Shown here: in pieces, positions 12,001 to 15,000 of the stretch
Position numbering within the stretch: position 1 is the first letter of the stretch
Layout of the letters: each line of letters begins with the position of its first letter
From: a virus
Taxonomy: Duplodnaviria; Heunggongvirae; Uroviricota; Caudoviricetes
Strand: one strand, 5' to 3'
IMG/VR virus record: IMGVR_UViG_646311923_000009
Length of the DNA stretch: 25,667 nt
Made by a program: the position numbers

Positions 12001-15000
12001 TGGCTTACCACAACACGCACACGGCTGTGTCTTTACCCAGCGTGTGTATTTCTCATTTACCCAGCGGCGACGTTTAGGTCGTTTCATGAAGGATTCCGGA
12101 GACTCCGGATCAACGGCAATGCTGACCACCGTCTTTTCCTGTGGTGGGTTCTGTTGCTGGTGGGTGTGAGGCGGTAGCGCAATATTTTTTGTGCGCTGCT
12201 TCAGTATGCTGGTGGCGGTCTGCTCTCCCGGTACGATGTCGCTTTCGCGGTACAAGGAGCGGATTTTTTCCACACGTAACCCCAGAGAACGACGTAATAC
12301 GGCCTCCGGTAGCGCGTCCGCCACCTGATTGCGGACCGCCCACCAGGATAATTCAGCCAGAGATAATTCACGCTCCTGCGTACCGCTTATTGCGTGACCG
12401 ATGACGTCAATCATCCATGCTGACAGGTTTTGATGAGCAAGTTGCTCGAGTGATTCGGATGTCTGGTCCCGTAGCTGGTTGTCGCAGTGCCAGCACAACA
12501 CCATTGCGCCGGTACCATAACGGTGAATGACAGTTTCGCTGTGGTGATAATCGCCGTGTGGCCACTGGCAGGATTTAATATGGCGCAACAGCCAGTCAGA
12601 CAATGCACCAGCACCACCAGCAGCACGAATCACTCGTTCGTCGCTGAAAAATGGCAGCAATGTTTTGTCTTCCACCAGCGGCTGGCGAACGGCAGGAACG
12701 ACCCCGGACGGCAGATTACGCATGCTTTTCGGTTCCGGCTCCACCAGTACCCGGGTATTGTGAAATACCTGCATGGATTCACGACCTGGCTTAAGGACCA
12801 CCAGCCCGAGTTCCGGTACCAGAACAGGTCGAAGTAATACCCGCACGTTACCTCCAGATCCGTTGCTGGAATGTGCGGGACGGACGCGGTGGGCGTTCGG
12901 AGTAAGGAAGCCTGACGGAGATTATCCAGTGACGATAATCGAGGCTGAGGGCTTTCCTAAACTCATACCCACGTCTGCGGTAGTTCTGAATCAGCCATTC
13001 GGCCTGTTCTTCAGTGCATGGGTCGTGCCGGAACCAGTCAGATTTGAATGCATGAGAACGCCGCCCGTGCCTGCTGGCAAAGACGGCTGAATTATCAGAA
13101 TTGTGTAGTCTGGAATTTTGCGCCATCGGCTTTCTCCGGTGGCACAGTGTTACTCAACAGGGGTTCAGCCCTGCGCTGAATTGTAGATGAATTCACTCAT
13201 CTTCAAAAGCAGAAAAACCAGCCTTAATCCCAGCGTCTTTCAGAGACGGCAACGATGTGACAAATTCATTTGCACGCAAAATAAAACCATCCGTCACAAG
13301 CCCATCCACAAAATGAATTAACGCAGCTCCACTCTTCCTTTGTTGAGACTGTAAACATTTAATACGGCAGTGGCTGACAATAGCGCCATTCTCAACGCGC
13401 ACAGTATAGAGGCCATCTTCACTAAAAATTTCACGTAATTCTTCGATTTTCATCAACAGAATCCTTCCAGATAAATAGCACTCCCCTGTTCGGGGTCCAT
13501 CCCTCTTCTCCCTGCGCGCTACTTAAGTATTTTTGATTCTATTCCGGCGCCGTCCGGAACTTCAAACGCGTTGAAAATAAAAACAAAAACCCGCCGAAGC
13601 GGGTTAAGTGCGGGTGCGTTGAGGATGCCTGACACATCAGAGGTGGCGAGGGATTTCTCCCCCGCCTGGTCTCTTACTCCTCAGGTTCGTAAGCTGTGAA
13701 GACAGCGACCTCCGTCTGGCCGGTTCGGATTCGTACCTCGCAGAGGTCTTTCCTCGTTACCAGTGCCGTCACTATGACGGTTAAACAGATGACGATCAGG
13801 GCGATTAACATCGCCTTTTGCTGCTTCATAGCCTGCTTCTCCTTGACCTTTCGGTCCGTAAGAGGCAATCTATATGTGACGAGCATATAGGGGCCTCACT
13901 TCGATTTATAGTCGGGTGGGGCTTTTATCTATCTGCCGTTGGTGTTCATGCCCGAGGCAGATAGCCTCAAGCACCCGCAGCAATTCTACTTAACTCTGCC
14001 GTTACAGCAAGCCGTTTTCGTCCGATATGGGAATTCCCATATCGGAATGAATTCAGTTCACCTGGCGAGGCTTAGCGTACAATTTTTTCCGTTTTGTGAG
14101 CTGCCCCTACATGCCGCTGGCGCGGCATCCGGAAAAAGAATCCACGTCCTGAAGGACGTGGAGGATGTCAAGTGCCTTTCCTGGTCCAGCCATATTTTTT
14201 GAATGCAGGCGCCGCTTCATCGGTTTGTAGCCATTCTGCAAATCGACGGGTTTCATCATTTGCATCCTGACGTACTGTAATGTTCATATCACGCCATATC
14301 ACGTAGTCTGGCGCTATTTCCACGACATCACCAATTTCTGGATTACTGGCTGCCCAGTCAGCCCAGGTTATCCAGACATCTGCTTCAGGCTGATTCTCAA
14401 GAGCCTTACGTGCAGTTCCGCTATTGGGCGCATATAAAATAATATTTTTTCGGATTGCGGCGACAGTTTCTATATTCCCTTTACGTCCGGCAATATCTTC
14501 CCAGACGCCAGTGCCTGATGTATTACTGGTACCACCACCATCATTAACAATTACGCCAATCCCGGGTCTGGTCAGGTCGTCAATACTCCGGATATTTTTA
14601 GGATTACCTTTCTTTACCAGTAAAATACTTTTTCGCAGATAAAGAGGCTGAATATCTTTTTCACTGAAGCTGTCTTTATGGTCCCGAATGATAGCCAGAG
14701 CAGATTGTTCTGATGCGCCAAACAAGATATCTGCATTTTTTTTGGCATCTTCATTCCATTTGTTCTGTGGGCCGTAATGAACGTTCACTATAATACCTGT
14801 TTTTTCGGCATAAAGTTTGGCTGCATCAAGCAAGGCTGTATGCGGGCCACCAGGACCATACAGATTGATATCAGCATAAGCAGCAGAAGACAGGAATATT
14901 AAAAAACCTGCCATTATGTTCCTCATAAAAAACTCCTTTTATTGGTTATCATGAAATAAAGTTATAAACACTACAAATAATATATATTACATCCAGATAA

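What the first reader, a model, noticed from the sequence alone, without database searches (positions are those of the whole stretch)
14022..14045. Perfect 24-bp palindrome between the SBP gene and the hok locus
CCGATATGGGAATTCCCATATCGG is a perfect palindrome centred on GAATTC, verified against the track translation of the overlapping ORF. This is long for chance; it is a likely binding site for a dimeric regulator or a structured RNA element in the region upstream of hok/mok. It does not resemble the relBE operator as I recall it.
Basis: seen in the sequence. Interest (0 to 1): 0.4.

Follow-up and report, generated by a model that had tools for sequence, protein, structure and literature searches.

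The report
Orphan KilA-N gene palindrome beside hok
The perfect palindrome is real, but it is not a hok control element: it is what remains of a deleted phage KilA-N/BstA-like gene, whose coding sequence carries this same hairpin-forming DNA site in viruses of many bacterial phyla and in giant viruses, so it is probably a site recognised at the DNA level.

Summary
The palindrome is confirmed and is longer than reported: 26 bp perfect at 14021-14046. No simulated window reached that length.

It lies 45-70 nt upstream of the inferred hok mRNA start. Most hok loci lack it, so it is not part of hok/sok.

The same sequence sits in frame (DMGIPIS) in the KilA-N domain of a KilA-N + BstA-C-terminal protein family (PHROG 6287). 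A related coliphage has the intact gene next to hok, in the same slot and orientation. The window keeps only 33 nt of it.

Across 80 distinct homologues chosen without regard to the palindrome:
- 24 have a perfect 24-nt palindrome, in 15 different sequences.
- 8 of 10 stem pairs show compensatory changes. In some, a synonymous Pro codon change matches an amino-acid change in the other arm.
- G-U pairs are rare, so the constraint looks DNA-level.

The element also occurs in giant-virus KilA-N/T5orf172 genes and in cyanophage KilA-N genes. Gene-less orphan copies occur in many unrelated phage contexts.

Most likely mechanism (inferred): a DNA palindrome or hairpin recognised by KilA-N proteins, for autoregulation or aba-like self-immunity. 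Here it is orphaned and may act as a decoy or be inert. I found no description of it in the literature searched.

The parts
14021..14046 (.). Perfect 26-bp palindrome, 24-bp core CCGATATGGGAATTCCCATATCGG. As a single strand it folds into an 11-bp stem with an AATT loop.
   Evidence: (I8). Single-stranded DNA fold: -11.8 kcal/mol, z = -4.7 against shuffles. The 24-mer is identical to the commonest intragenic site of KilA-N/BstA-like genes across phyla.
14023..14055 (+). 33-nt remnant of a KilA-N/BstA-like coding sequence. The + strand reads DMGIPISE*IQ against DMGIPISELIQ in the intact gene.
   Evidence: 94% identical over 33 nt to L287 4674-4706, inside the intact KilA-N gene of phage vB_EcoS-613R10. 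hok and the DUF1627 gene flank it in the same order and orientation. No KilA-N family ORF is left in the window.
13827..13976 (-). Context: hok mRNA 5' leader, sok and the mok start. The palindrome lies outside this region.
   Evidence: Rfam RF01794, 103.9 bits, E = 7e-23, full-length model match.
13983..14010 (-). Context: inferred hok promoter, -35 TTGCTG at 14010..14005 and -10 TAGAAT at 13988..13983. The palindrome centre is then at about -57.5.
   Evidence: Read from the sequence. The start site is inferred from the first position of the Rfam model. The simple promoter scan did not call this promoter because the -35 matches only 3 of 6. Inference.
14141..14162 (-). Context: intrinsic terminator of paa, 95 nt upstream of the palindrome in the direction of transcription.
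   Evidence: Terminator scan: 9-bp stem followed by TTCTTTTT.
14168..14926 (-). It is a moron inserted about 14 nt beyond the palindrome.
   Evidence: RefSeq and GenBank annotation of identical regions. Homology with paa-less prophages ends at 14059.

Best explanation
Shown: the palindrome is an orphan copy of a conserved palindromic DNA element that normally lies inside the KilA-N-domain coding sequence of phage genes. In coliphages those genes are a KilA-N + BstA-C-terminal-domain family (PHROG 6287). In related lambdoid phages the intact gene sits next to hok on the opposite strand. In this PPompW/Sp9-type prophage the gene has been lost except for 33 nt centred on the palindrome, and the paa moron was inserted just beyond it.

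Shown: in intact genes the palindrome is maintained at the nucleic-acid level by Watson-Crick compensatory changes, and the encoded amino acids change to accommodate it.

Inferred mechanism: the element is a DNA site recognised by KilA-N-type proteins, either as a duplex inverted repeat or as a hairpin or cruciform extruded on supercoiled or replicating DNA. Because the site sits inside the gene, the DNA-binding protein stays linked to its own target. That would serve autoregulation of a toxic protein, or self-immunity of the aba type described for BstA.

Inferred status here: the site has no cognate gene in cis. It can act only in trans, as a binding or decoy site for KilA-N/BstA-like proteins made by other prophages or hosts, and it may now be functionless. 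It is not a regulator of hok.
For: Identity and synteny
- The exact 22-mer lies in frame (DMGIPIS) in Pfam KilA-N proteins.
- The family matches PHROG 6287 'BstA' (E = 3e-89), the PADLOC BstA C-terminus (E = 3e-21), and BTP1 BstA at 32% identity over 142 aa.
- L287 and L039 have hok, the intact gene and the DUF1627 gene in the same order and orientation as the window.

Nucleic-acid-level maintenance
- Of 80 distinct homologues not selected on the palindrome, 24 have a perfect 24-nt palindrome, in 15 different sequences.
- 89% of cells are paired. 8 of 10 stem pairs and 111 cells carry double changes. The covariation score is 0.394 against 0.123 in shuffles (0 of 500 reach it), and at most 0.079 when the partners are slid.
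- Pro CCC->CCG co-varies with Met ATG->Ile ATC in the other arm.
- The element is kept in genomes of 27% to 66% GC.
- There are only 11 G-U cells against 88 non-pairs, which points to DNA rather than RNA.

Tied to KilA-N rather than to the BstA C-terminal domain
- It is present in KilA-N + T5orf172 proteins of giant-virus MAGs.
- It is present, with altered centres, in cyanophage and Bacteroides-phage KilA-N genes.

Orphans
- Copies reduced to little more than the palindrome occur in about 13 non-hok contexts that have no bstA-like gene within the DNA fetched. One lies in the linker of a terminase small subunit and one beside an iteron cluster.
- Some orphans are longer perfect palindromes (26-30 bp) than the 22-bp intragenic E. 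coli versions.

Precedent
- BstA is neutralised by aba, a DNA element embedded in its own gene that works in trans on replicating DNA (PMC8585504).
- KilA-N is a DNA-binding fold; the family profile matches the Mbp1 APSES domain in the PDB.
Against: - No binding or phenotype data exist for this family. Its abortive-infection activity is assumed from homology limited to the C-terminal domain.
- The mapped aba of BTP1 lies at the 5' end of bstA and is built on CCCGCC direct repeats, not on a palindrome. BTP1 bstA has no such palindrome.
- Cognate specificity as described for aba fits poorly with the same 24-mer being shared across phyla.
- The stem sequence varies freely as long as it pairs. That fits a structure better than a sequence-specific duplex operator.
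- Hok-linked orphans decay in some lineages: a 1-nt deletion in 6 contigs, and a degenerate pseudogene in L292. The orphan is therefore dispensable.
- The intact gene is present in only 147 of 5426 E. coli genomes, while the paa-type orphan is in 577. Usually there is no resident partner.
- Quasi-palindrome template switching could keep, or even extend, perfect symmetry without any selection.
Confidence: 0.45

Rival explanations
1. Inert relic. The palindrome is the last surviving piece of a deleted KilA-N/BstA-like gene and has no present function. Its perfection reflects recent common descent of the EHEC prophages. Templated (quasi-palindrome, template-switch) mutation may also contribute, since it corrects or copies changes between the arms.
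For: - Synteny shows it is a gene remnant.
- The paa-type copies in 577 genomes are 98-100% identical over 55 nt, so they carry little information about selection.
- Related hok-linked copies carry a 1-nt deletion, loop changes, or several mismatches in a longer pseudogene remnant.
- Most genomes with the orphan cannot hold the intact gene.
- Established knowledge: quasi-palindromes are hotspots for templated mutations that perfect inverted repeats.
Against: - Random decay should leave fragments of random position and size. Instead, in about a dozen unrelated contexts what survives is the palindrome plus 15 nt or less.
- Several orphans are longer perfect palindromes than their intragenic relatives.
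- One copy is in frame in a terminase small-subunit linker, and others lie in places with no trace of KilA-N coding sequence.
Confidence: 0.3
2. RNA-level hairpin. The element acts in transcripts. Inside KilA-N mRNAs it would be a processing, pausing or translational-control hairpin. As an orphan it would be a 3' stabiliser or processing site in read-through transcripts of paa or of the early-right operon.
For: - A strong hairpin is predicted, and a perfect palindrome gives the same RNA from either strand.
- In L001 and L383 it starts 9-14 nt after the stop codon of the upstream gene. In L019 it follows the capsid gene. Both are typical positions for a 3' hairpin.
- Covariation supports pairing.
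Against: - G-U pairs are rare: 11 cells against 88 non-pairs, and only 5 one-sided changes against 111 double changes.
- No U-tract follows it on either strand, and the terminator scan does not call it.
- In the window it lies downstream of a real terminator and upstream of the hok promoter, so it is transcribed only by read-through.
- No Rfam family matches it.
Confidence: 0.12
3. One reading: an operator for a dimeric regulator (DicA, DicC or another local HTH protein) that controls the hok/mok promoter.
For: It lies immediately upstream of the inferred -35, centred near -57.5, where activators or UP-like elements act.
Against: - It is absent from most hok loci that have the same promoter.
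- Its spacing to the promoter differs by 18 nt between lineages.
- It lies outside the conserved hok/sok model.
- The identical sequence occurs in viruses of unrelated hosts that have neither hok nor dicA.
Confidence: 0.04
4. Recombination or module-junction hotspot. The short, universally conserved and hairpin-prone sequence acts as a portable patch of homology or as a break site where unrelated phage modules are joined. Under this reading its position at the hok/paa junction is a by-product.
For: - Homology between prophages often ends within a few nt of the palindrome.
- Three different upstream genes (a 34-aa ORF, paa, an ORF6N gene) abut the same palindrome-hok unit.
- The L013 copy lies between two ~32-nt direct repeats.
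Against: - This does not explain why the element is conserved with covariation inside intact genes.
- The paa junction is 14 nt away from the palindrome, not at it.
- No recombinase or nuclease is linked to it.
Confidence: 0.09

Closest known systems
aba (anti-BstA) element of the BstA prophage abortive-infection system (Owen et al. 2021, PMC8585504)
   Same: It is a short DNA element embedded in the defence gene itself, so gene and element stay linked. It is reported to act as DNA, not as RNA or peptide, and to work in trans on replicating or high-copy DNA. The host gene family shares the BstA C-terminal domain, and in phage PhiR5_2 it also shares the position just downstream of cI.
   Different: aba of BTP1 overlaps the 5' end of bstA, is 63 bp long, and depends on terminal CCCGCC direct repeats. 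It is not palindromic and has no sequence similarity to this element. BTP1 bstA lacks this palindrome. Suppression of a BstA-like protein by the palindrome is untested. The palindrome follows the KilA-N domain, including into proteins without the BstA C-terminal domain.
cis elements of hok/sok type I toxin-antitoxin loci (hok promoter, tac/fbi, ucb/dcb, sok)
   Same: It is adjacent to a complete hok/mok/sok locus, just upstream of the hok promoter.
   Different: It lies outside the Rfam hok/sok model, is absent from most hok loci, and its spacing to the promoter varies.
Intragenic autoregulatory operators of phage nin-region DNA-binding proteins, for example HK022 Roi, which binds a site in its own gene (recalled from Clerget & Boccard 1996; the paper could not be retrieved)
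   Same: A phage DNA-binding protein related to Ant/KilA proteins, encoded between the replication genes and Q, with its binding site inside its own coding sequence.
   Different: Roi belongs to another family and its site sequence was not compared here. This is a lead from memory, not a test.
Rickettsia palindromic elements (RPEs), which are palindromic and insert in frame into genes
   Same: A palindromic unit found in frame within unrelated ORFs: a terminase small-subunit linker, and three tandem units in a giant-virus KilA-N protein.
   Different: This unit is 22-30 bp, against roughly 100-150 bp for RPEs. Mobility has not been demonstrated. Most copies are explained by descent within KilA-N genes or by gene decay.
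Intrinsic terminators, and REP/BIME extragenic palindromes
   Same: A GC-clamped hairpin in an intergenic region, downstream of a gene.
   Different: No U-tract follows it. There are one or two copies per genome rather than hundreds. Its origin is a coding sequence.

Membership tests
hok/sok locus cis-regulatory elements | Lies within the conserved hok mRNA / Sok RNA unit | tested here: not met
   The RF01794 match covers 13976..13827. The palindrome is at 14021-14046.
hok/sok locus cis-regulatory elements | Conserved wherever the same hok promoter and leader occur | tested here: not met
   Of the 93 newly fetched hok-promoter loci, 82 have none, 10 have damaged copies and 1 lies too close to a contig end. 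27 of the 120 loci were already held from the exact-palindrome scan.
Intragenic palindrome of KilA-N (BstA-like) genes, the class defined in this report | Sequence identical to the family's site, with flanking coding remnant and synteny | tested here: met
   The 24-mer equals the commonest variant. 31 of 33 nt match L287, and the order hok - gene - DUF1627 is conserved.
Intragenic palindrome of KilA-N (BstA-like) genes, the class defined in this report | Located inside an intact KilA-N ORF | tested here: not met
   A family HMM search of all six frames finds no KilA-N family ORF in the window. The copy is therefore an orphan.
aba (anti-BstA) self-immunity element | Embedded in or overlapping a bstA gene | tested here: not met
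   The window has no bstA-like gene. In homologues the palindrome is internal, at codons ~58-65, and not at the 5' end as in BTP1.
aba (anti-BstA) self-immunity element | Sequence or architecture of the mapped aba: 63 bp with terminal CCCGCC direct repeats | tested here: not met
   There is no similarity, and BTP1 bstA has no comparable inverted repeat.
aba (anti-BstA) self-immunity element | Suppresses the cognate BstA protein when carried on replicating DNA | not testable with these tools
   Requires phage plaque or induction assays.
BstA abortive-infection protein family (applies to the intact homologues, not to the window) | Homology over the whole protein to characterised BstA | tested here: inconclusive
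   PHROG 6287 matches full length (E = 3e-89). The PADLOC BstA model and BTP1 BstA align only with the C-terminal domain. The N-terminus is a canonical Pfam KilA-N domain.
Intrinsic (Rho-independent) terminator | GC-rich hairpin followed by a U-tract | tested here: not met
   The terminator scan calls only 14162..14141 and 13605..13588. The palindrome is followed by CGAAAACGG on the minus strand and ATGAATTCA on the plus strand.
REP/BIME-type repeated extragenic palindromes | Many dispersed copies per host genome | tested here: not met
   Genomes that have it hold one or two places; the median is 1.
Structured RNA families (Rfam) | Match to a curated covariance model | tested here: not met
   The gathering-threshold scan of the whole window finds nothing at the palindrome.

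The most novel reading that the evidence does not exclude
A large clade of KilA-N DNA-binding domains, in phages of many bacterial phyla and in giant viruses, carries its own palindromic or hairpin DNA target inside the sequence that encodes the domain. Protein and site therefore travel together through domain shuffling. Gene-less orphan copies such as this one are kept by phages as decoys (aba-like anti-defence sites) that neutralise KilA-N/BstA-like replication inhibitors made by resident prophages.
Probability: 0.22. Interest if true: 0.85.

Novelty: new variant of a known kind. Interest (0 to 1): 0.62.

Why it matters
If the palindrome is the DNA ligand of KilA-N/BstA-like proteins, three things follow.
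- It gives a concrete, testable 24-bp handle on how this widespread and mechanistically obscure class of prophage proteins recognises DNA. BstA's target, and the way aba works, are stated to be unknown in PMC8585504.
- It would show a DNA-binding domain that encodes its own site.
- Orphan copies would mark phages that have acquired immunity without the defence gene.

For annotation the point is practical. The sequence next to hok in hundreds of EHEC genomes is a gene relic or orphan site, not a hok operator.

The covariation also shows nucleic-acid structure constraining protein sequence: amino acids change in symmetric pairs to keep a hairpin.

Tried and rejected
- **Rfam.** The whole-window scan found hok/sok, DicF, STnc100 and ALIL, but nothing at the palindrome. 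An E-value scan of the non-coding region around the L080 orphan found nothing.
- **Literature.** Searching for the core sequence returned only unrelated oligonucleotide papers. 'KilA-N + palindrom + phage' and BstA follow-up searches gave nothing relevant. The HK022 Roi paper could not be retrieved, so that parallel rests on memory.
- **aba identity.** My first idea, that the palindrome is the published aba, was rejected after reading the paper and checking BTP1 bstA.
- **A second 'variant' site.** The site 335 nt from the orphan in L005/L080 (AAAAACGGGAATTCCCGTTTTT) looks like an ordinary bidirectional terminator. I do not count it as evidence.
- **Clean insertion in the terminase gene.** I tried to show this by comparing relatives. 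They are only 60% identical and the linker is hypervariable, so the result is suggestive only.
- **RNA versus DNA from wobble pairs.** G-U is rare on the sense strand. C-A/A-C mismatches, which would be wobble pairs on the other strand, are no commoner than other mismatches. There is no strand preference.
- **Known E. coli operator consensus sequences** (CRP, LexA, ArgR, PurR, Cra and others), compared from memory: no match. This was not a formal test.
- **Not run.** Structure prediction of the KilA-N protein and the large protein-database searches were not run. They would not have decided between the mechanisms.
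Full report
**1. Observation.** The sequence CCGATATGGGAATTCCCATATCGG is at 14022-14045 as reported. The symmetry is perfect for 26 bp, at 14021-14046. It is the longest perfect palindrome in the window; the next has 9-nt arms. The analytic expectation per window is 1.5e-3 for arms of 12 or more and 3.8e-4 for arms of 13 or more. None of 300 first-order Markov simulations exceeded arms of 11. As single-stranded DNA it folds into an 11-bp stem with an AATT loop (-11.8 kcal/mol, z = -4.7).

**2. Local anatomy.** All genes here are on the minus strand.
- The 'SBP gene' is paa, an AcfC-family adhesin, at 14926..14168. Its intrinsic terminator is at 14162..14141.
- A second small hairpin lies at 14111-14128.
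- Next comes the palindrome, then the hok locus.
- The Rfam hok/sok model matches 13976..13827 at full length. mok starts at 13886 and hokD is at 13829..13674. The hok terminator is at 13605..13588.
- Reading the sequence, a TAGAAT -10 (13988..13983) and a TTGCTG -35 (14010..14005) precede the model's first base. This puts the palindrome at about -45 to -70. That placement is an inference; the simple promoter scan did not call this weak -35.
- The window is 100% identical to E. coli 2011C-4251 and about 99% identical to the 'PPompW' prophages of EHEC.

**3. It is not part of hok.**
- Matches to the 801-nt query spanning hok (13450-14250) occur in 4725 of 5426 E. coli genomes. Most alignments stop at about 14005-14018, just before the palindrome.
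- A scan of viral contigs with a hok promoter/leader pattern returned 120 loci. Of these, 27 were already held from the exact-palindrome scan. Of the 93 new ones, 82 have nothing resembling the palindrome. Another 10 have damaged versions: a 1-nt deletion in six contigs, single changes in three, and a degenerate copy in L292.
- The distance from the palindrome to the hok -35 differs by 18 nt between lineages.

**4. Where the sequence really belongs.**
- In several contexts, from contigs of 27% to 57% GC, it is in frame (C GAT ATG GGA ATT CCC ATA TCG = DMGIPIS). The ORFs are ~250 aa and have a Pfam KilA-N domain (E = 4e-27).
- The family matches PHROG 6287, 'BstA abortive infection system, replication inhibitor', at full length (E = 3e-89). 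It matches the PADLOC BstA model over the C-terminal domain (E = 3e-21). It aligns with BTP1 BstA only in that domain (32% over 142 aa).
- In coliphage PhiR5_2 the gene lies directly downstream of cI, the architecture described for BstA (PMC8585504).
- In phage vB_EcoS-613R10 (L287), and in L039, the gene lies in the nin region next to hok on the opposite strand.

**5. The window copy is a remnant of that gene.** BLAST of L287 against the window gives three collinear blocks, all in one orientation:
- hok: L287 3815-4158 matches window 13660-13988.
- The palindrome plus 11 nt: L287 4674-4706 matches window 14023-14055, 31 of 33 nt identical.
- The DUF1627 gene: L287 6544-7295 matches window 15817-16566.

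On the + strand the window reads DMGIPISE*IQF, against DMGIPISELIQSF in the intact protein. An HMM of the family finds no ORF in the window.

Prophages without paa (L001) share the sequence up to 14059 and then continue with a 34-aa hydrophobic ORF. Another lineage (L018/L383) has an ORF6N gene there, and its palindrome is 26 bp perfect. L292 keeps a longer, decayed remnant.

**6. The palindrome is maintained at the nucleic-acid level.** I fetched homologues by protein patterns that lie outside the site, from viral contigs and from one genome per species. These gave 80 distinct site sequences.
- 24 have a perfect 24-nt palindrome, in 15 different sequences. Examples are CCGAAACGGGAATTCCCGTTTCGG, GGTCTATGGGAATTCCCATAGACC, CCGATGTCGGAATTCCGACATCGG and CCGAAGCGGGGATCCCCGCTTCGG.
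- The encoded heptapeptide changes in symmetric pairs: D-M..I-S, E-T..V-S, S-M..I-D, S-A..A-D, V-M..I-T.
- The synonymous Pro codon switches from CCC to CCG when the paired Met ATG becomes Ile ATC.
- On the gap-free alignment A3, 89% of cells are paired (72% in shuffles). 8 of 10 stem pairs and 111 cells carry double changes. The covariation score is 0.394 against 0.123 in shuffles (0 of 500 reach it), and at most 0.079 for slid partners.
- The central four bases behave as a loop (AATT, GATT, AATC, TATA, GATC).
- The pair next to the invariant GG/CC pairs at the top of the stem is G-C or C-G in 76 of 80 sequences and never A-T, even in AT-rich genomes.
- G-U pairs are rare: 11 cells against 88 non-pairs, and 5 one-sided against 111 two-sided changes. 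The constraint therefore looks Watson-Crick, that is DNA-like. Coding constraints could also disfavour wobble intermediates.
- A small subfamily (QTGMPE) lacks the palindrome.

**7. Breadth.**
- Hosts of the homologues include Proteobacteria, Bacteroidota, Verrucomicrobiota, Planctomycetota, Spirochaetia, Dehalococcoidia, Nitrospirota, Armatimonadota and candidate-phyla-radiation (CPR) lineages, at 50-60% protein identity. The window's exact 24-mer is the commonest variant across them.
- The ETGIPVS variant occurs in KilA-N + T5orf172/MUG113 proteins of giant-virus MAGs with 27-45% GC. One of these proteins has three tandem palindromic units.
- More distant KilA-N genes keep complementary arms even where the centre has changed. 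These come from Planktothrix phage PaV-LD, Microcystis phage Mic1, Bacteroides LoVEphage and an environmental podovirus. Other KilA-N genes (D3 orf11, a Klebsiella phage, a Winogradskyella phage) have no such element.
- The element therefore follows a large KilA-N clade, not the BstA C-terminal domain.

**8. Orphans.** Besides the hok-linked copies, the exact 22-mer occurs without a family gene within the DNA fetched in about 13 other contexts.
- Some keep only a codon or two of flanking coding sequence (L020 D*IQRF, L005).
- One lies in frame in the hypervariable linker of a terminase small subunit (phrog_57).
- One lies between two ~32-nt direct repeats, beside an iteron-like cluster and a primase/helicase-like gene.
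- One follows a capsid gene and is extended to a 30-bp palindrome.
- L057 has two different variants 36 nt apart.
- About half of these contexts lie in replication, nin or early regions (most functions were judged by eye).
- In E. coli the intact gene is present in 147 of 5426 genomes. The paa-type orphan is present in 577.

**9. What is known.** Owen et al. 2021 (PMC8585504) showed that BstA proteins are prophage abortive-infection proteins that block phage DNA replication. A DNA element within the bstA locus, aba, gives the prophage self-immunity and works in trans at high copy. In BTP1, aba is a 63-bp sequence at the 5' end of the gene with CCCGCC direct repeats. The aba elements of the E. 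coli and Klebsiella homologues were not mapped. The paper mentions no palindrome, and BTP1 bstA has none. Searches for the sequence, and for KilA-N together with palindromes, found nothing. I recall that HK022 Roi binds a site in its own gene, but I could not retrieve the paper.

**10. Mechanism.**
- Shown: the identity of the element, its origin by gene loss, and its maintenance by compensatory change in intact genes.
- Inferred: it is a DNA target of KilA-N-type proteins, most simply a hairpin or cruciform or a symmetric duplex site. Sitting inside the gene, it keeps protein and target linked, for autoregulation of a toxic protein or for aba-like self-immunity. The window's copy has no gene in cis and usually none in the genome. 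At best it acts in trans as a binding or decoy site.
- The main rival is that it is now inert, kept perfect by recency and possibly by quasi-palindrome template switching. The deletion lineage and L292 show that the hok-linked orphan can decay.
- An RNA-hairpin role, a hok operator role and a recombination-hotspot role are less well supported, for the reasons listed under the rival explanations.

**11. Verdict.** The element appears to be undescribed. It links an ordinary-looking intergenic palindrome in EHEC prophages to a pan-viral feature of KilA-N genes. Its function remains to be shown experimentally.

Noticed in passing
window 13674-13976 (-): The hok locus here is complete: a mok ORF, a full-length Rfam hok/sok match and its own promoter. 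From memory, hokD in K-12 is truncated by relBE. Many O157-type copies carry -10 TAGAAT->TAGGAT, possibly a promoter-down change (listing).
   Followed up: partly
window 15091-15118: An inverted repeat with perfect 12-nt arms and a 4-nt spacer (ATGTTGATTACA..TGTAATCAACAT). It lies upstream of paa, in the decayed fimbrial pseudogene region, and could be a paa regulatory site (I10).
   Followed up: no
window 14111-14128: A small hairpin, ATGCCGC-GCCA-GCGGCAT, between the paa terminator and the palindrome. Its role is unknown.
   Followed up: no
window 5669-5785 (-), 9655-9821 (-), 20920-20971 (+): Rfam matches: the ALIL pseudoknot (an IS3-family frameshift signal, so an IS element lies there), an STnc100 sRNA homologue, and DicF.
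   Followed up: no
window 4517-4550 and 23824-23841: An inverted repeat with perfect 12-nt arms and a 10-nt spacer, and an 18-bp perfect palindrome, GGCAGGGGATCCCCTGCC.
   Followed up: no
L393 ~1940-2030 (244-kb contig, 27% GC): A KilA-N protein on a 244-kb, 27% GC contig (probably a giant virus; only the KilA-N domain was detected by Pfam) has three tandem, individually self-complementary GIP units: KKGIPVF / GMGIPID / ETGIPVS. The palindromic unit can therefore duplicate in frame.
   Followed up: partly
L013 6640-6940: An orphan palindrome sits between two ~32-nt direct repeats. It is next to six TGTCCCGC-like iterons and a 754-aa primase/helicase-like gene, which looks like a replication origin of a P4-like element.
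   Followed up: partly
L080 12430-12950 (also L005, L026): A stretch of about 500 nt around an orphan copy is non-coding and looks structured. It has no Rfam match.
   Followed up: partly
L057 13855-13914 (66% GC contig): Two different palindrome variants, DMGIPIS-type and an imperfect ETGIPVS-type, lie 36 nt apart. Both are in frame in a long open frame of unknown function.
   Followed up: partly
L001 2990-3094 (-): A 34-aa hydrophobic ORF (MSDDISLAMEGALAVIAVVGVYCLVVFLMDRLGN, WP_001278450.1) ends 9 nt before the palindrome in paa-less prophages. It has no family match. It may be a small membrane protein or toxin.
   Followed up: partly
loci L267 and L268 (one Dehalococcoidia contig): Two copies of the KilA-N/BstA-like gene lie on one chromosome. 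The family shows 50-60% protein identity across more than 10 phyla, which is unusually high for a phage accessory gene.
   Followed up: no
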